Of a DNA stretch of 64,000 nucleotides, positions 33,001 to 42,000 are shown in pieces; position 1 is the first letter of the stretch; each line of letters opens with the position of its first letter. Source of the DNA: an uncultured Desulfospira sp. (GTDB lineage Bacteria; Desulfobacterota; Desulfobacteria; Desulfobacterales; Desulfobacteraceae); the NCBI GenBank assembly GCA_963663165.1, contig OY760175.1:1152001-1216000 (forward strand), written 5' to 3'. The position numbers are program-made.

Positions 33001-36000
33001 AAAGCAAGGGTGACCGGCGCATCCTCAGGGCCTTTAAACGGGGAACCGCTGATGTCAATATGATGGACAAAATCAATGGACAGGGCGGTCAGTGTGTTTG
33101 TCCGGCCGTCAATGAGGTAAAGGGTTTCAGCCCGGGGAGAAACATCAATACCGGTGACCCCTTTGCCAACCGACACCCCGCCGGCCAGCTGTCCGTCGGT
33201 GTCATAGACCAGTACCTTGCTTTCTTTGGTCAGGACAAAAACGTATTTCCCGTCATCTGAATGAACGATATCCACAGGGCTTTCCGGCAGCCGCCATTGT
33301 TTGGCCATATGCCATTCAATGGCCACGGTGTTTTCAGGTTCAGGGGATGCGGCAAGGGTAAAATCGGCCAAACAAGCCGTCATCAGGGCCGCAAGAATAA
33401 AAAAATACGGTTTTAAATTCATGGCGTTAAATGGTTTCCATCCATAAGCGGTTGTGTGGGGATATATCTTTAAAAATGTATAGGATAGGAACTCCCTTTT
33501 TGTCAAGGAAATGTGAAGAGAATGTGACGGATTGGCCGTTTTTAAAGCAGAAAACTTAGCGCATGGCCTTGTCAATTGAGGCAAAAACCCTGTCCCAGGT
33601 ATATGCTTCCTTTGCCAGGCACCGGGCGTTTTTCTGAATCGCCTGCCACAGGGGTTTGTCCGTTAACAGGGAGTGGATGTCGCCGGCCATTTTGCCCGGA
33701 TCTTCGGATATAATCGCATGGACCCGGTCTTTGAGCGCCAGCCCCGCTGTTCCCGTCGGCGTTGTGGCCACGGGGATGCCCCGGTACAGGGCGTTAATGA
33801 TTTTAACCTTTATCCCGCCCCCGAATCTTACCGGGGCGACAAACACCCGGCATTGGTCATAATACGGGGTCAGATCCGCCACAAACCCGGTCAGGATAAT
33901 ATCTGCTTTAGACGCCACCAATCTTTGCAGTGCGTTGCCCGGGGCGGCGCCCACAATATAAAAGCGCAGCTGCGGGTTTTGGGCCTTGAGGCGGTCCCAG
34001 ACATGGGTTATAAACCAGGTCAGGCCGTCTGAGTTCGGCTCCCAGCTCAAGGTTCCCACATAAAGCAGCGTCACCTGTGTCCGGTCAAAATCAATGCCGG
34101 GCAGATCCAGCAGCCGGGCATCCCCTAAATGAAAGGTTTCATAGAATTTCTCCGGCCGGGTCCCGAGCCGTAACAAATCCAGCCGGTCATTGGGGGCGGC
34201 CAGGATGCCGTGGGCTTTTTTTCCGGCGGCTGTTTCCCAGGCCTTGATCCGTTTGGACTCCAGATAAATCACCAGTTTTTTAATGGGATTTCTTTCAAGG
34301 TGGGCCAGTTTCTCCCAGATCACATATTCCGCATTATGGGCATGCAGAATAATGCGGCCGCCAAACCCTTCCGGTATATAGGGGGCCATGATAAGGGAAT
34401 CTAAAAACAGGATATCATACCCGTCGGCAATTTGTTCGACATGGGCTTTAAACGTGGCCGAATAATTTCTGTACAGGGACAGCGGCATGTGTTTAAAATA
34501 GCTTTTCAAAAGATTCCGGATGGTCCTGGGTCTGCTCAGCATTTCCCCATAAAACGCCGTTGTTCTGATTTTTGACAACAGCATGGCTTCTCGCCGGTCA
34601 AAATTGTCCGCAAAAAACACACAAACAGCCAGGTCGTAATGCCTTGAAAGGTATTCGGCCATTTCCCACCGTTTTACGGCACCCCCGCTGACCGGCGGAT
34701 AGTCCAGCTGATGGGCAAGAAAAAGGATCTTTTTCAAGGGGAAACCAGCCTTTGAAATACGGTCCTTTTATTGATCAGATCCTGGGGGGTTCCCAAGGTT
34801 TTTATCCGGCCGTTTTGAAGCAGTACAATCCGGTCACACTGTGTCAGGGCGCTCATGCGGTGGGCCACAATGATCATGGTCTTTTTGCCGTGGAGGGCAT
34901 TGACGGCCCGGGATAGATCCTGCTCGGTGTGTTCGTCCAAAGCCGATGTGGCTTCGTCAAATATGAGAAGCTCAGGGTCATGGTAAAGGGCCCGGGCAAT
35001 GGCAACCCGCTGTTTTTCCCCGCCGGACAGGGTCAGCCCCCGCTCCCCGATGTCTGTGTCCAGGCCCTGGGGCAGCGTAGATATAAAATCTTCCAGCTGG
35101 GCCATATGGACGGCTTTGGCCACTTTAGTGCGGTCAATTTCATGGGCATTGATCCCAAAGGCGATATTTTGTGCCAGGGTGTCATCGGTCAGATAGATGT
35201 CCTGGGGGACAAACCCGATTTTCCGGCGCCAGGATGCCATCCGGCTTTGAATATTCGCATCATCCACGAGAATCCGGCCTTTTAAAGGCGGTATCAGTCC
35301 CAGTATAAGATCGATAATGGTGCTTTTGCCACTGCCGGTAGGCCCCATAATGCCGATAAATTCTCCGGGATGAATGGTTATTGAAACATCGGTTAAAACC
35401 GGCCCGCGCTCCTTTTCATAGGTAAAGGAAACCTGATCCAGAACCAGATGGTGTTGAAAGGTCATGTCCGGCTGCGAATCCTGCGGGTCAGCAGATTCCG
35501 ATTCATATGTCGCTAAAAGTGCCATATCTGCGGCCAGAAGGTCTGCCTCAGCCCCGCCGTACCGGATGAGGTTGATATGCATGGACAGCCGGTTAAATGA
35601 CGGAATGGCCCGGAACCCGGCATAGGTAAAAAGGCCTAAAAGCGGCAGCACATCCTGCATCCCGCCGGCCTTTTCCATGGTTAAAAATACAATGATGAGC
35701 GGCACACAGACAAAAACGGTTTCCACCAGAAACCGGGGGCTGTGGTTCAAGGTGACCACCAGCCGCCTTTGCCGGGAAAGGGCGTTCTGGGTATGGCAAA
35801 ACATGTCATGCCAGAAGGATTCCCGGCCCATGACCTTTACTTCTTTTAATGCGCCAAACGCCTGCTGCATGGTCTTCAGGGCATTTTGCCGCATGTGTTG
35901 TTCCTGGACACCGAGCCTGGCAAACAGGCGGTGCAGCGCTATCAGCAGGGCGCCAAGCAAAAGAGACAGCAAAGAAACGCAACCGATCGTCATCATGGGA

Positions 36001-39000: not shown

Positions 39001-42000
39001 AGCCATGTCGTATTTGCCCCCAACGCGCCATACGAAAAACTGACAGCGTATTTAGGGTCGTCCAAAATTGGCCTGCACGCCATGTGGAACGAACACTTCG
39101 GCATTGGTGTGGTGGAGTACATGGCCGCAGGCTGCATTGCCGTGGCTCACAAAAGCGGCGGGCCTGCACTGGATATCCTTGTCCCGGCCCATGACGGGCC
39201 AAGGGGGTTCCTTGCCGATTCCATGGAGACCTATGTTGCCGCACTGTGCCATATTCTGCTTGGGGAACGGCCCGAAAAGGACCTTGAAAACATACGAATC
39301 CGAGGCCGTAAGCAGTGTCAGAAATTTTCCAACGACATATTTATCAAAAAAATACAGCGACTGATGGTCTTTACCGGCACATCTTTGTGTTTATTCTGGC
39401 CAGCGCCATTTTAGCGGCCATGGGGCTGGACATGATGACCGCCTTTGGGGCTGCAGCATCCTGCATCGGCAATATCGGGGGGCCCTTTTCAAATGATCCG
39501 GGGAACCTACTTGATTCTTTGGATATCCGCACCCAGTTGTGAAAACTTCTTTTCAATGGCCTCGTACCCCCGGTCCATGTGGTACACCCGGGAGATCACC
39601 GTGGTGCCCCGGGCCATAAGGCCTGCGATGACCAGGGAGGCCGAGGCCCGAAGATCCGATGCCATGACCGGCGCCCCCTGAAGGGACTTAACCCCCCGGA
39701 CCATGGCGTAATTGCCGCTGGACACGGTGATTCTGGCCCCCAAGCGAATCAGTTCATTGGCATGAATGAAGCGGTTTTCAAAAATCGACTCATGAATAAC
39801 GGAATCCCCTTTGGCCACCGAGAGCATGGCCATGAACTGGGCCTGCATGTCCGTTGGAAACCCGGGGTATGGCAGGGTTTTGATGTCCACGCTTTTAATG
39901 GTTTCCTGCCCCTTTACCCGGATACGGTCCTGGCCGGTTTCTATCAGGGCACCAGTCCCTTTTAACTTGCTGATCACCCCGCCGATATGGTCCGGACAGC
40001 AGCCCTCAATGGTGACATCCCCGCCGGTTGCCGCCGCCGCCACCATAAAGGTGCCGGTTTCAATCCGGTCAGGAATGACATTGACCGTTGCCGGATGAAG
40101 GGCGTCCACCCCTTCGATCTCAATGATGGCGGTCCCGGCCCCGGACACCTTAGCCCCCATCTGGTTCAATGCATCGGCCAGACAGACAATTTCAGGCTCT
40201 CTGGCCGCATTCCTGATCACGGACCGCCCCCTGGCCAGCACTGCGGCCATCATCAGGTTTTCTGTCCCGGTTACCGTCGGGGTATCAAAGTAAATGTCCC
40301 CCCCGGTGAGCCGGTCGGCCTTGGCCTCAATATACCCGTGATCAATGGAAATCTTTGCCCCTAAAGATTCAAGCCCGGAAAGATGCATATTCACCGGTCT
40401 TGCCCCAATGGCGCACCCGCCGGGCATGGAGACCTTGGCATGGCCGAACCGGGCTGTCAGAGGACCTAACACCAGAATAGAGGCCCTCATTTTTCTGACC
40501 AGGTCATATTCGGCCTCAATCTTGTTGATGCCGGAACCGTCTACGGTGAACACATGATCTTCAAAGGTACACCGGGCACCTAAATCTTCAAGCAGAAGCC
40601 GGATGCTTTTGATATCCATCAGGTCCGGAACATTGTAAAAAGTGGTGGTGCCGTTGACCAGAATTCCTGAAGCAATCAGGGGAAGGGCCGCATTTTTAGC
40701 CCCGCTGATCTTGACCGTCCCGTGAAGTTTTCTGCCGCCATTTATCTGTATTTTATCCATAAGCTCCGGTTGAAACAATTTCCTTAACTAACGGTCACGG
40801 GCCGTCTTGGTTATCCAACCAAGCACCGCCCACAACGAATAATGAAACTGAAGATACCAGCAACGGTAGACTATAAATTGGGCACCGCAGGTGCTTCGCC
40901 CTCTTGTCTCTTGTTTCTTGTTTCTTGTCTCCAGTTTCTTATAAACGGCCACGGGCCGCCCTGGTTGTCCAACCAAGAACCGCCCACAACAAATAATGAA
41001 AGTCTTCTCAAGATGTTAGTGAGACTTTCATATAAAAAATATCAAACCATTTTTCTTGCCCTGCAACTTAGGGGATATGGACCATTTTTTCCAGAAAAAA
41101 ATTATTTTTACCCTTCATGCATTGATTTCCCCATCCTCCCCCGAAAGAATAAAGGCTCAGCCATGCCGGTCACCGGCGTTTATCATGCCTCAGACGGTTC
41201 CGGGTCAGATGCCGATGGCACAGCCGGGTAGAGCGGGTTCCATTGCCCTGAAACATGAATCAGGTAATGCTCTGTGGGAAGCTGCTCCAAAAACGGCGGA
41301 TCTCCCAGCCAGCGGCGGTGTTGCTGCCAGGCGGCCACTTCCAGGGCCCCCCTTGGGCTGCGCAGGGAACCATCAGATGCGATCTCGCTGAACTTTAAAC
41401 GGTGGCTTCTGACGGGGAGATCCCCTTTCCGGAGTATTTCCAGCCGGCCGTGAACGTGAAGACCGTATTTTTCAGCGTTTCTGGCAAAATGGGTTTGTTC
41501 AAACAGGACAAAGGCGCTGGCGGTCAGACTGTTCAGGCAGTCATAGGCCCCCTGGATGAACTCAAACGTCTTTTCAAGGTCATGGTCTGTGCTGGTGGGC
41601 AGGCCAAAAATCATCAGGCCCATATTTGAAATCCCGGCCAGGCTGCCCGCCTCCAGGACCTTTTGAATATCCGGCACCACCGTTCCCTTGTTCACCAGAT
41701 CCAGCAGGCGCTGGGACCCGGTCTCAATCCCCCACCCGATCCACCGGCACCCGGCAGCTGACCAGAGAGCCATGCGGCCGGGGGTGCAGTCCCGGGTGGG
41801 GCGGCCCAGAATATGAAGGTTCACCGACAGCCCCCGGGCCAGAATCGCCTCACAGATGGCATCCATGTCTTCTGGCTGAATAAACTCGTCTGCCGAATAA
41901 AAATAGCGAACCCCCAGGGTCCGGGCATAGGTTTCAATTTCAGAAACAAAGGCCTGGGCATTTTTTTTCCGGAACCCCCCAAAGGAAAAATTATGGGAGC

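What a model noticed while it worked through the whole genome (the two positions that open the first line are those of the whole stretch)
33556..39414. Eukaryote-type ALG11 and ALG2 mannosyltransferase genes side by side with a PglK-like flippase
Two divergently placed genes encode full-length homologues of the ER cytosolic-face mannosyltransferases ALG11 (g01067, 45% identical to human ALG11, with the ALG11_N domain) and ALG2 (g01066, 43% identical to human ALG2). They lie next to a PglK-like ABC flippase and another glycosyltransferase, and an STT3/PglB gene with a MurG/ALG13-14-like neighbour lies elsewhere (g05126-g05127). I propose that this sulfate reducer builds a eukaryote-like oligomannose lipid-linked glycan and that its ALG11 is a rare inter-domain transfer or relic. 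A true bacterial ALG11 orthologue has not been described, and it would give a prokaryotic enzyme set for making the eukaryotic N-glycan core in bacteria.
Evidence so far: Swiss-Prot: g01067 residues 18-452 against ALG11 of zebrafish/human, 45%, E 1e-116; g01066 residues 6-403 against human ALG2, 42.7%, E 1e-91. In the 5.8-billion-protein search only 3 relatives above 50% identity were found (86, 73, 51%; contigs of 5.3 Mb, 205 kb and 2 kb). The other listed best hits (of 120) are at 38-47%, and all that carry a name are eukaryotic ALG11. Pfam ALG11_N is recorded in 3 of 189,784 other bacterial species genomes, 2 of them in this family. In a quick ML tree of 30 sequences the 4 prokaryote-context sequences form one clade (SH-aLRT 99) outside the animal and plant clades. 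The genes sit in the single 6.74-Mb contig with neighbouring-gene GC of 0.51-0.53.
(Added by a program. Inside this text positions count along the whole contig: contig position 1,152,001 is position 1 of the stretch shown here. "Call 12" and the like, gene names such as g00115 and contig names such as C1 are that model's own, and its searches are not shown. The text may have been shortened before it was handed on; [...] marks where a part breaks off. The agent that wrote the report below was given it as the finding of a first reader that could run no searches.)

Follow-up and report, generated by a model that had tools for sequence, protein, structure and literature searches.

The report
Bacterial ALG11 and ALG2 glycan genes
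A sulfate-reducing bacterium carries an intact close relative of the eukaryotic mannosyltransferase ALG11 next to an ALG2-like enzyme, a lipid-sugar exporter and a giant cysteine-rich secreted protein; with a PglB enzyme encoded elsewhere these probably form a eukaryote-like protein glycosylation pathway, which bears on where eukaryotic N-glycosylation came from.

Summary
Window 37987-39414(+) encodes a 475-aa protein with a full-length ALG11_N domain (E 3e-71). Its only relatives above 50% identity are three prokaryote-context proteins; all other listed hits are eukaryotic ALG11 at 38-47%. It faces an operon of an ALG2-like GT4, a PglK/MsbA-type ABC exporter, a stp1/PslH-like GT, a DsbA-like protein and a 1738-aa secreted Cys-rich LamG protein.

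New here:
- The four-gene core is syntenic in two other genomes (84-92% and 72-76% identity).
- Those genomes also share this genome's PglB plus MurG-like pair.
- In the more distant genome the giant protein's homologue sits beside PglB instead of beside ALG2, linking the three parts.
- The giant protein carries a strictly conserved N-E-S sequon in each repeat.
- The GT plus ALG2 pair appears to lie on one contig in five more bacteria without a close ALG11, so ALG11 looks like an addition to, or a survivor in, one sub-lineage.

The direction of transfer stays unresolved: the prokaryote clade nests among eukaryotes with under 95% support, and AU tests do not reject it lying outside.

No ALG1 orthologue could be tested. 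Bacterial ALG1 and ALG2 were already described in a 2025 preprint; bacterial ALG11 was not found in print.

The parts
37987..39414 (+). ALG11-like GT4 mannosyltransferase, 475 aa (P0001). It has an N-terminal hydrophobic anchor (residues about 4-20), the GGGGERVLW loop and the EX7E motif EHFGIGVVE.
   Evidence: Pfam ALG11_N E 3e-71, full length. Nearest named relatives are eukaryotic ALG11 at 38-47%. Motifs are invariant in a 12-sequence alignment. It lies inside the ALG11 clade against an ALG2 outgroup.
37751..37986 (.). 236-bp divergent intergenic region between the ALG2 operon and ALG11.
   Evidence: Coordinates; sequence. The promoter scan is not above chance (12 found against 9.9 +/- 2.5 in shuffles), so no promoter is claimed.
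36512..37750 (-). ALG2-like GT4, 412 aa (P0002). The G-loop GIGGAER is present. The EX7E motif reads EHFGIGIVE, with G where canonical ALG2 has V.
   Evidence: Pfam. The 119 listed relatives at 43-84% are all prokaryotic or metagenomic, and many are named alpha-1,3/alpha-1,6-mannosyltransferase by JGI. Motifs.
34734..36527 (-). ABC half-transporter (transmembrane domain plus ATPase domain), 597 aa (P0004). Candidate flippase for the lipid-linked oligosaccharide. It overlaps ALG2 by 16 nt and the GT by 4 nt.
   Evidence: Pfam ABC_membrane and ABC_tran. Best NCBIfam hits are PglK at 294.7 bits (cut-off 1000) and MsbA at 285 bits. 92% and 76% identical in the two syntenic genomes.
33556..34737 (-). 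GT-B glycosyltransferase, 393 aa (P0003), of the stp1 (TIGR03087) / 'PslH' type. By elimination it is the candidate for the step before ALG2.
   Evidence: NCBIfam TIGR03087 at 170.9 bits (cut-off 316), aligned end to end. The ESM Atlas gives generic bacterial GT clusters. No PDB relative by sequence. By contig-length matching it appears to share a contig with ALG2-like genes in 5 further bacteria.
32550..33584 (-). DsbA-like thioredoxin-fold protein. The ORF has a TTG start at 33584. A more likely start is the Met at about 33425, followed by a signal or lipoprotein-like peptide.
   Evidence: Pfam Thioredoxin_4 and DSBA; sequence. A protein of the same architecture flanks PglB in G689, but it is only 32% identical and orthology is not shown.
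27331..32547 (-). 1738-aa secreted protein and candidate glycosylation substrate. It has an N-terminal signal or anchor, a LamG (Laminin_G_3) domain at 87-239, then Cys-rich repeats (9.6% Cys). Each repeat holds the motif CCHPKISYVNESGVFPVQC with an N-E-S sequon (6 copies).
   Evidence: Pfam; sequence and sequon counts. Homologue 93-98% identical in G688. In G689 the homologue (45-68% identical in aligned pieces) lies directly beside PglB-GT28, with the motif kept 4 times.

Best explanation
The locus is one half of a two-locus bacterial protein-glycosylation system built partly from eukaryote-type cytosolic mannosyltransferases.

Inferred sequence of steps:
1. A WecA-type enzyme and the PglB-adjacent MurG-like GT28 make a GlcNAc or GlcNAc2 primer on undecaprenyl pyrophosphate at the cytoplasmic face.
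2. The stp1-like GT (P0003), the ALG2-like GT (P0002) and the membrane-anchored ALG11-like GT (P0001) extend it with mannose from GDP-mannose. ALG11 adds terminal alpha-1,2-mannoses.
3. The ABC exporter flips the lipid-linked glycan to the periplasm.
4. The PglB-type oligosaccharyltransferase, encoded 4.8 Mb away, transfers it to Asn in N-X-S/T sequons. The prime candidate substrate is the giant Cys-rich secreted protein encoded at the end of the operon, whose disulfides the DsbA-like neighbour would help to form.

Shown:
- gene identities, their integrity and their family placement;
- synteny of the four-gene core in two other genomes;
- co-occurrence with one specific PglB-GT28 pair;
- relocation of the giant protein's gene between the two loci.

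Inferred: every enzymatic step, the glycan structure, and the substrate.

Origin: the ALG11 gene most likely joined a pre-existing bacterial GT-ABC-ALG2 operon by an old, fully ameliorated transfer from a eukaryote. The reverse direction is not excluded.
For: Family placement:
- ALG11_N is full length at E 3e-71.
- Best named hits are eukaryotic ALG11.
- The prokaryote proteins plus P0375 form one clade: 98/98 in the careful site-heterogeneous (PMSF) tree of 32 rows, 96 in the 55-row quick tree, 97 in the 156-row FastTree.
- The GGGGERVLW and EX7E motifs are invariant.

Module:
- GT, ABC, ALG2 and ALG11 are syntenic in L003 (84/92/84/86% identity) and L004 (73/76/72/72%). In L004 the flanks differ.
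- Gene overlaps of 16 and 4 nt indicate one operon.

Link to PglB:
- All 3 ALG11-bearing genomes have STT3. In the same-order sample, 10 of 150 other genomes have it.
- Their PglB and the adjacent GT28 are orthologous: 86/84% and 67/68% identity.
- Seven other STT3 loci of the order were examined. Five gave only 23-33% partial matches to this PglB and two gave none. None held a GT28, though three of the seven are contigs under 7 kb.
- In G689 the giant protein's homologue lies directly next to PglB-GT28. In the window and in G688 it closes the ALG2 operon.
- PglB carries WWDKG in all three genomes.
- The GT28 is a second MurG paralogue, 32.5% identical to the cell-division-cluster (dcw) MurG.

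Supply and substrate:
- The genome has a WecA-like gene and two GDP-mannose pyrophosphorylase genes.
- Desulfobacterota PglBs accept eukaryote-type N-X-S/T sequons (PMC12229607, passages read).
- The VNES motif is conserved in every repeat and between genomes.

ALG11 as the addition:
No close ALG11 hit lists those contigs.
- Composition is native.
Against: - PglB is not in the locus, and nothing shows physical or regulatory coupling.
- The window's genome and G688 are close kin, so the co-occurrence rests on about two independent lineages.
- No ALG1 orthologue was identified. P0003 looks like an exopolysaccharide-type GT4.
- P0002 has G instead of the EX7E valine. Mutating that valine lowered activity in the preprint.
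- The WecA-like gene sits in an exosortase/Poly_export locus, not here.
- The ABC exporter scores almost equally as MsbA or HepA.
- N-X-S/T sequons in the giant protein are only mildly enriched: 16 against 10.6 +/- 2.9 in shuffles.
- The LamG domain could mean the giant protein binds rather than carries the glycan.
- The two DsbA-like proteins are only 32% identical.
- The tree does not settle the direction of transfer.
Confidence: 0.55

Rival explanations
1. The module makes a mannose-rich exopolysaccharide, capsule or glycolipid on undecaprenyl phosphate and exports it through the ABC transporter. It has nothing to do with PglB or protein glycosylation.
For: P0003 is closest to TIGR03087, a PEP-CTERM/exosortase-system glycosyltransferase, and relatives are named PslH by JGI. 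Its only paralogue (26% identical) lies near the exosortase/WecA/Poly_export locus. P0002 also hits exopolysaccharide GT models weakly. The ABC exporter resembles HepA and MsbA as much as PglK. PglB is 4.8 Mb away.
Against: The same specific PglB-GT28 pair is present in all 3 ALG11 genomes and was not seen in the other STT3 loci examined. The giant protein's gene switches between the ALG operon and the PglB locus. The locus has no polymerase, chain-length or Wza-type export gene. ALG11 and ALG2 are lipid-linked-oligosaccharide enzymes in every characterised case (established knowledge).
Confidence: 0.27
2. On the question of origin only: the prokaryote ALG11 clade descends from the bacterial lineage that gave ALG11 to the eukaryotic stem. 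It is vertical in bacteria and lost almost everywhere, rather than captured from a eukaryote.
For: AU tests do not reject the prokaryote clade lying outside all other ALG11: p 0.13-0.14 without P0348 and 0.35 with it. The nodes that nest it among eukaryotes reach only 85-91% bootstrap. The clade is deep (P0007 at 51%, P0375 at 35-40%). It sits beside an ALG2-like gene of a family for which bacterial ancestry of the eukaryotic enzyme has been argued (bioRxiv 10.1101/2025.10.15.682550). A distant ALG11-related GT4 follows ALG2-like in G338.
Against: Only 2 of 185,579 species genomes carry it besides this one. It was found in 0 of 300 sampled genomes of the order and 0 of 60 relatives of G689. 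Relatives that carry the GT-ALG2 pair lack a close ALG11. All three trees place the clade at or inside the eukaryotic radiation with a short stem, 0.27-0.33 against 1.7-3.9 to the outgroup. Desulfobacteraceae are recurrent symbionts of anaerobic protists, which gives a route for eukaryote-to-bacterium transfer (bioRxiv 10.1101/2023.03.03.530753, passages read).
Confidence: 0.25
3. The ALG11 gene is eukaryotic contamination or a misassembly, not part of the bacterial genome.
For: The nearest named relatives are all eukaryotic.
Against: It lies in a single 6.74-Mb contig between bacterial genes, with murA 93 bp downstream. It is an uninterrupted ORF. GC, GC3 and codon usage are at the genome median. 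The same gene order is found in two independent MAG assemblies.
Confidence: 0.01

Closest known systems
Eukaryotic ALG11 (GDP-Man:Man3GlcNAc2-PP-dolichol alpha-1,2-mannosyltransferase, CAZy GT4)
   Same: Full-length ALG11_N plus Glycos_transf_1 architecture. N-terminal membrane anchor. GGGGERVLW loop and EHFGIGVVE EX7E motif. 38-47% identity across animals, plants and algae.
   Different: Encoded in a bacterium that has no ER or dolichol pathway. Placed next to an ABC exporter operon. No ALG1 partner identified. Activity and acceptor untested.
Bacterial ALG1 and ALG2 homologues of Xu et al. 2025 (bioRxiv 10.1101/2025.10.15.682550; Results parts 1-2 and Discussion read)
   Same: P0002 belongs to the same broad bacterial ALG2-like family (MAGs of Deltaproteobacteria, Binatia and others) and has the GIGGAER loop they show to be essential.
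   Different: That work did not analyse ALG11 or gene context. P0002 and its nearest relatives have G, not V, at the sixth EX7E position (36 of 121 sequences have G and 78 have V). Whether their 'DeALG2' is related to P0002 could not be checked, because the preprint's supplements are closed.
Campylobacter pgl N-glycosylation system (PglB oligosaccharyltransferase, PglK ABC flippase, GT4 enzymes PglA/H/J)
   Same: The same logic: cytoplasmic assembly on undecaprenyl pyrophosphate by GT4 enzymes, an ABC flippase, and a single-subunit STT3-family transferase.
   Different: The genes are split over two loci. The GTs are of ALG2/ALG11 type rather than PglA/H/J. PglB and the ABC exporter score far below the NCBIfam equivalog cut-offs (77 against 1300, and 295 against 1000). 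No bacillosamine genes are in the locus.
Desulfovibrio PglB systems with relaxed sequons (PMC12229607, passages read)
   Same: Same phylum. A single-subunit PglB accepts N-X-S/T without the -2 acidic residue, which fits the YVNES sites.
   Different: This PglB is only distantly related to other STT3 genes of its own order (23-33% partial identity). It is paired with a MurG-like GT28.
ALG1/ALG2-type N-glycan clusters noted earlier by this scan in Vicinamibacteria and another bacterium (e1-3188292, e1-3045337, e1-3188288; AI notes)
   Same: ALG2-like GT, ABC flippase candidate and an oligosaccharyltransferase in bacteria.
   Different: According to those notes, ALG1 is present there and the ALG11-like gene is only distant, all in one compact cluster. 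Here ALG11 is a close orthologue, ALG1 is not found, and the system is split in two loci.

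Membership tests
ALG11 (Pfam ALG11_N + Glycos_transf_1; GT4) | ALG11_N domain above Pfam's gathering score over its full length | tested here: met
   240.2 bits against a cut-off of 29.8; profile positions 2-209 of 209. Also 242.9 bits in the whole-genome search.
ALG11 (Pfam ALG11_N + Glycos_transf_1; GT4) | Groups with ALG11 rather than with the paralogue ALG2 | tested here: met
   The ALG11 clade including the window's protein is separated from bacterial ALG2-like outgroups at 100/100, 99 and 94 and 100. P0001 is only 24% identical to its neighbour P0002.
ALG11 (Pfam ALG11_N + Glycos_transf_1; GT4) | Conserved glycine-rich loop and EX7E motif. Their functional importance in yeast Alg11 is recalled, not from a call. 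| tested here: met
   GGGGERVLW and EHFGIGVVE lie in invariant columns of a 12-sequence alignment of 4 prokaryote-context proteins and 8 eukaryote or eukaryote-like proteins (2 of them unnamed).
ALG11 (Pfam ALG11_N + Glycos_transf_1; GT4) | Alpha-1,2-mannosyl transfer to Man3GlcNAc2-PP-lipid | not testable with these tools
   Needs an enzyme assay or yeast alg11 complementation.
ALG2 (GT4 alpha-1,3/1,6-mannosyltransferase) | N-terminal G-rich loop G-I-G-G-A-E-R (defined in bioRxiv 10.1101/2025.10.15.682550) | tested here: met
   GIGGAER at residues 14-20 of P0002. Present in 86 of 121 relatives, with close variants in 31 more.
ALG2 (GT4 alpha-1,3/1,6-mannosyltransferase) | EX7E motif with the conserved valine (E-H-F-G-I-V-P-L-E) | tested here: not met
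   P0002 reads EHFGIGIVE: both glutamates are kept, but V is replaced by G and P by I. In the preprint the V-to-A change lowered but did not abolish activity.
   No eukaryotic ALG2 sequence was returned by any search. All 119 listed relatives are prokaryotic or metagenomic.
PglK-type lipid-linked-oligosaccharide ABC flippase | Half-transporter with ABC_membrane and ABC_tran domains | tested here: met
PglK-type lipid-linked-oligosaccharide ABC flippase | Scores as a PglK equivalog (NCBIfam NF050066) | tested here: not met
   294.7 bits against a cut-off of 1000; MsbA scores 285 bits. 'PglK-like' is a resemblance only.
Bacterial PglB-dependent N-glycosylation system | STT3/PglB-family transferase with a WWDxG motif in the genome | tested here: met
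   729-aa protein with STT3 and STT3-PglB_core domains. WWDKG at residue 469, conserved in G688 and G689.
Bacterial PglB-dependent N-glycosylation system | Transferase and glycan-assembly genes are functionally linked | tested here: inconclusive
   They are not co-located (1.19 Mb against 6.03 Mb). They do co-occur in 3 of 3 ALG11 genomes as an orthologous pair, and the giant protein bridges the two loci in G689.
Eukaryotic cytosolic LLO pathway (ALG7, ALG13/14, ALG1, ALG2, ALG11) | ALG7-family GlcNAc-1-P transferase | tested here: met
   WecA-like 546-aa protein (TIGR02380 at 167.6 bits, below the cut-off of 326) in addition to MraY.
Eukaryotic cytosolic LLO pathway (ALG7, ALG13/14, ALG1, ALG2, ALG11) | ALG13/14-type second GlcNAc transferase | tested here: inconclusive
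   There is an extra full-length MurG-like GT28 next to PglB, but no Alg14 Pfam match in the genome. Its acceptor is unknown.
Eukaryotic cytosolic LLO pathway (ALG7, ALG13/14, ALG1, ALG2, ALG11) | ALG1 beta-1,4-mannosyltransferase (GT33) | not testable with these tools
   No ALG1 sequence or specific family model was available as a seed. P0003 shows no ALG1 signal. Attempts to find a seed near other ALG2-like genes failed.

The most novel reading that the evidence does not exclude
This small prokaryote ALG11 clade, always paired with a bacterial ALG2-like gene, would be the surviving bacterial source lineage of eukaryotic ALG11. The whole cytosolic mannosyltransferase set (ALG1, ALG2, ALG11) would then have bacterial ancestry. 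The sulfate reducer would natively build a Man5GlcNAc2-like glycan on undecaprenol, flip it with an ABC transporter, and attach it through PglB to conserved N-E-S sites of a giant disulfide-rich secreted protein. That would be a bacterial counterpart of the link between N-glycosylation and oxidative folding in the ER.
Probability: 0.15. Interest if true: 0.92.

Novelty: new variant of a known kind. Interest (0 to 1): 0.72.

Why it matters
- **Origin of N-glycosylation.** The origin of the eukaryotic pathway is disputed: archaeal in Lombard 2016 (PMC4973528), bacterial for ALG1 and ALG2 in the 2025 preprint. ALG11 is the one cytosolic mannosyltransferase for which no close prokaryotic counterpart has been discussed. 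Here there is one, in a conserved context, and it can be expressed and assayed directly.
- **A testable native system.** The locus offers a natural bacterial set of mannosyltransferases, flippase, oligosaccharyltransferase and probable native substrate. That would give a first system in which to ask what a eukaryote-type oligomannose glycan does for a bacterium.
- **Glycoengineering.** It would also give bacterial enzymes for engineering E. coli, which at present relies on yeast ALG enzymes (recalled, not from a call).

Tried and rejected
- **Metagenome scan for more prokaryotic ALG11.** It returned 80 loci, all at or below 45% identity. None had an ALG2-like or P0003-like neighbour; one (L075) had a weak ABC hit. 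They look like picoeukaryote contigs, so this was a dead end. The records of P0006 and P0007 themselves were not returned.
- **Search for an ALG1 seed.**
  - Neighbours of the ALG2-like gene in G338 gave a distant ALG11-related GT4 (P0409), a GT17 and GT2s, but nothing ALG1-like. Ten further ORFs there had no Pfam hit even at E 1.
  - The 19 partial loci hold no ALG-type cluster.
  - The 24 Glyco_trans_1_4 matches in the window's own genome gave no way to tell ALG1 apart.
- **Tree tests.** The treekit AU tests never finished. A full manual IQ-TREE run timed out. I replaced them with fast-search AU tests under LG+G4. The constrained trees may therefore be suboptimal, which makes the non-rejection conservative. 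The 55-row careful tree did not finish; the 32-row one did, with bootstraps not fully settled.
- **Origin of P0375 and P0348** (nearest unnamed relatives, on contigs of 34 kb and 2 kb). Not resolvable: cluster look-ups gave no names and their DNA was not obtainable.
- **Expression.** No RNA holder listed.
- **Promoters and terminators.** The scan was not above chance.
- **DsbA-like orthology between the window and G689.** Only 32% identity, no better than a paralogue elsewhere in the genome. It is not used as evidence.
- **Contamination.** Rejected.
- **Earlier findings of this scan.** Look-ups by place and by sequence returned nothing.
- **Rft1 Pfam search of the window's own genome.** No match, but the control rang nowhere, so it is uninformative.

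Full report
**What is in the sequence.** The region holds four adjacent genes:
- 33556-34737(-), a 393-aa glycosyltransferase (P0003);
- 34734-36527(-), a 597-aa ABC exporter (P0004);
- 36512-37750(-), a 412-aa GT4 (P0002);
- 37987-39414(+), a 475-aa GT4 (P0001), on the other strand across a 236-bp gap.

Two more genes follow on the minus strand: a DsbA-like protein at 32550-33584 and a 1738-aa protein at 27331-32547. Overlaps of 16 nt (ALG2/ABC) and 4 nt (ABC/GT), and a 2-nt gap before the giant gene, indicate one operon. murA lies just downstream of P0001. GC is flat across the region. GC, GC3 and codon-usage distance of the module genes fall between the 11th and 78th percentile of 1767 long ORFs of the genome; ALG11 is at 50, 47 and 47.

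**Identity of the two ALG-like genes.** P0001 matches Pfam ALG11_N over the whole model at E 3e-71.
- In the 5.8-billion-protein search, 3 of 119 listed non-self hits exceed 50% identity (86, 73 and 51%). The remaining 116 are at 38-47%, and every one with a name is from a eukaryote.
- An alignment of four prokaryote-context proteins with eight eukaryotic or eukaryote-like ones shows invariant GGGGERVLW and EX7E motifs and a hydrophobic N-terminus in all.
- No solved ALG11 or ALG2 structure exists by sequence search.

P0002 is different in kind. All 119 listed relatives at 43-84% are prokaryotic or metagenomic: Nitrospira, Desulfatiglans anilini, Deltaproteobacteria and Binatia MAGs. Many are named alpha-1,3/alpha-1,6-mannosyltransferase by JGI.
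- It has the GIGGAER loop that the 2025 preprint showed to be essential.
- Its EX7E reads EHFGIGIVE. G replaces the valine that the preprint found important.
- Of 121 ALG2-like sequences, 78 have V and 36 have G at that position.

**Rarity.**
- A pattern scan of 185,579 species genomes returned two full-length ALG11 homologues: an uncultured Desulfospira MAG and a Proteobacteria MAG from a saline site. The other 19 loci were partial GT4 matches.
- ALG11_N was found in 0 of 300 other sampled genomes of the order and in 0 of 60 relatives of the Proteobacteria MAG.
- P0002-like genes were found in 0 of 300 order genomes at E<=1e-50 and in 1 of 400 phylum genomes at E<=1e-60. Only 4-6 candidates per genome were scored.
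- NCBI already labels the MAG protein as the ALG11 enzyme.

**The module is conserved.** GT, ABC, ALG2 and ALG11 keep order and orientation in both other genomes, at 84/92/84/86% and 73/76/72/72% identity. In the Desulfospira MAG the DsbA-like and giant genes are also kept. In the Proteobacteria MAG the flanks are unrelated (a HipA toxin, AMP-binding enzymes). The four genes therefore travel as a unit.

**Link to PglB.** The genome encodes a 729-aa STT3/PglB-type protein (WWDKG motif) with a full-length MurG-like GT28 overlapping its end.
- This GT28 is a paralogue (32.5% identical) of the cell-division-cluster (dcw) MurG.
- Both other ALG11 genomes have the same pair, at 86/84% and 67/68% identity.
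- In a 150-genome sample of the order, 10 have any STT3 match and 7 exceed the cut-off.
- In those 7 loci the transferase is at best 23-33% identical over part of its length. No GT28 is present, though three of the loci are contigs under 7 kb and cannot speak to adjacency.
- Most telling, the homologue of the giant protein (45-68% identical in aligned pieces, 1122 aa) lies immediately next to PglB-GT28 in the Proteobacteria MAG, with a DsbA-architecture gene on the other side. In the window and the Desulfospira MAG it ends the ALG2 operon.

The window's genome and the Desulfospira MAG are close kin, so this is roughly two independent observations.

**The candidate substrate.** The giant protein has a signal-like N-terminus, a LamG domain, and then repeats with 9.6% cysteine.
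- The 19-residue motif CCHPKISYVNESGVFPVQC recurs six times. It recurs four times, letter for letter, in the G689 homologue, and it holds an N-E-S sequon.
- Overall sequon enrichment is modest: 16 against 10.6 +/- 2.9 in shuffles.
- Desulfobacterota PglBs accept N-X-S/T without an acidic -2 residue (PMC12229607, passages).
- A disulfide-rich exported protein, a DsbA-like gene and a glycosylation module in one operon fit a substrate role. The LamG lectin-like fold leaves a glycan-binding role open.

**Rest of the pathway.**
- The genome has a WecA-like gene, in an exosortase/Poly_export locus.
- It has two GDP-mannose pyrophosphorylase genes.
- It has no Alg14 Pfam match.
- P0003 is closest to the PEP-CTERM-system GT family TIGR03087, below its cut-off, and to generic bacterial GT clusters. 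It shows no ALG1 signal.
- I could not test for an ALG1 orthologue because no ALG1 seed could be obtained.
- By count of steps, P0003 occupies the ALG1 slot. This is inference only.

**How the module grew.** Contig lengths listed for P0003-like hits and ALG2-like hits coincide for five further bacteria:
- 98,378 bp (Pseudomonadota MAG; GT 70%, ALG2 65%);
- 40,857 bp;
- 31,960 bp (Nitrospira);
- 96,389 bp (Deltaproteobacteria);
- 14,122 bp.

None of these contig lengths appears among the 120 ALG11 hits. The GT-ALG2 pairing is therefore broader than ALG11. A more distant case is G338: there an ALG2-like gene with the canonical EHFGYVPLE motif is followed by a 376-aa GT4 that is 26% identical to the C-terminal half of ALG11, and the cluster also holds a GT17 (MGAT3-like) gene. 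Earlier notes of this scan describe ALG1/ALG2 clusters with a 'distant ALG11' in other bacteria (unchecked leads).

**Direction of transfer.** I built trees from 50%-identity cluster representatives (729 at E<=1e-30; of the 149 listed besides P0007, I kept the 134 that were 400-560 aa long) plus named anchors.
- The three close prokaryote proteins group at 99-100. With P0007 and the unnamed P0375 they form a clade at 96-98.
- In the careful site-heterogeneous (PMSF) tree of 32 hand-picked rows, that clade is sister to the unnamed P0348 (98/90). It then sits inside the eukaryotic radiation behind nodes of 87/91, 85/90 and 91/78, none decisive. The bootstraps had not fully settled.
- Its sister changed between trees: Carpediemonas and P0348, P0348 with Spongospora and P0263.
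- AU tests (LG+G4, fast searches) do not reject the clade lying outside all other ALG11: p 0.13-0.14, or 0.35 if P0348 goes with it.
- The very narrow distribution, the short stem, the native composition and the symbiotic habits of Desulfobacteraceae with anaerobic protists (bioRxiv 10.1101/2023.03.03.530753, passages) make an old capture from a eukaryote the more likely reading, at about 0.6. Bacterial ancestry stays open at about 0.25.

**Literature.**
- Bacterial ALG1 and ALG2 with activity: bioRxiv 10.1101/2025.10.15.682550. I read the outline, Results parts 1-2 of 3, the Discussion and passages. ALG11 is mentioned there only as background.
- Lombard 2016 (PMC4973528, passages) placed ALG11 beside proteoarchaeal GT1 sequences.
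- Kifer et al. (bioRxiv 10.1101/2024.10.30.621208, passages) map ALG11 to 'cellular organisms' by BLAST.
- Searches for 'bacterial ALG11', 'ALG11 homolog' and similar terms found 4 papers, none on this subject. Searches likewise found none.
- The library lacks most subscription journals, and the preprint's supplements are closed.

**Verdict.** It is a new variant of known bacterial N-glycosylation systems and the first close ALG11 counterpart seen in a conserved bacterial context. The glycan structure, the ALG1 step and the direction of transfer remain open.

Noticed in passing
G338 locus L112:11548-16805: In a high-GC genome of the same phylum, an ALG2-like gene with the canonical EX7E motif is followed by a distant ALG11-related GT4 (P0409). 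Nearby are a Glyco_transf_17 (MGAT3-like, E 1e-26) gene, UDP-glucose dehydrogenase, a UXS-like epimerase, GT2s and a sulfotransferase. This is another eukaryote-flavoured glycan cluster.
   Followed up: partly
window 52104-57179 (+): A 1691-aa protein with three stretches of Glce_b_sandwich (the beta-sandwich domain of D-glucuronyl C5-epimerase, a heparan-sulfate enzyme) and Ig-like domains. A transglutaminase-like gene follows at 57518-58480.
   Followed up: no
window 7507-11063: A group II intron reverse transcriptase/maturase (8477-9826, minus strand) lies beside a RhuM-family ORF that matches only the first 136 of 252 profile positions, and an HNH_2 endonuclease ORF. This may be an intron insertion into a mobile element.
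   Followed up: no
window 44460-47637: A DruA-like (Druantia) ORF (E 3.5e-36) is followed by two ORFs of 295 and 390 aa without Pfam hits. They sit at the start of a low-GC stretch (0.42-0.46 from 46 to 58 kb). Possibly a defence islet.
   Followed up: no
window 18728-19987 (+): A response-regulator receiver domain is fused to a formate/nitrite transporter (FNT) in one 419-aa ORF, downstream of a Cache-domain histidine kinase.
   Followed up: no
own genome, contig positions 578000-592000 (L113) and 561297-572541: An exosortase (EpsH) gene, a WecA-like 546-aa gene, a TPR protein and a Poly_export gene lie together. Close by are a GDP-mannose pyrophosphorylase gene and the only paralogue of P0003 (26% identical). 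This is the probable PEP-CTERM exopolysaccharide system.
   Followed up: partly
own genome, contig position 1822806 (L029): A third gene with a Glyco_transf_28 N-terminal match (E 1.7e-8, 417-aa frame), of unknown role.
   Followed up: no
G689 locus L123:141-5001: Upstream of the DsbA-like, PglB, GT28 and giant-protein block lie a 1044-aa sigma-54 activator with GAF and TPR parts and a small dockerin-domain protein. A possible regulator of the system in that genome.
   Followed up: no
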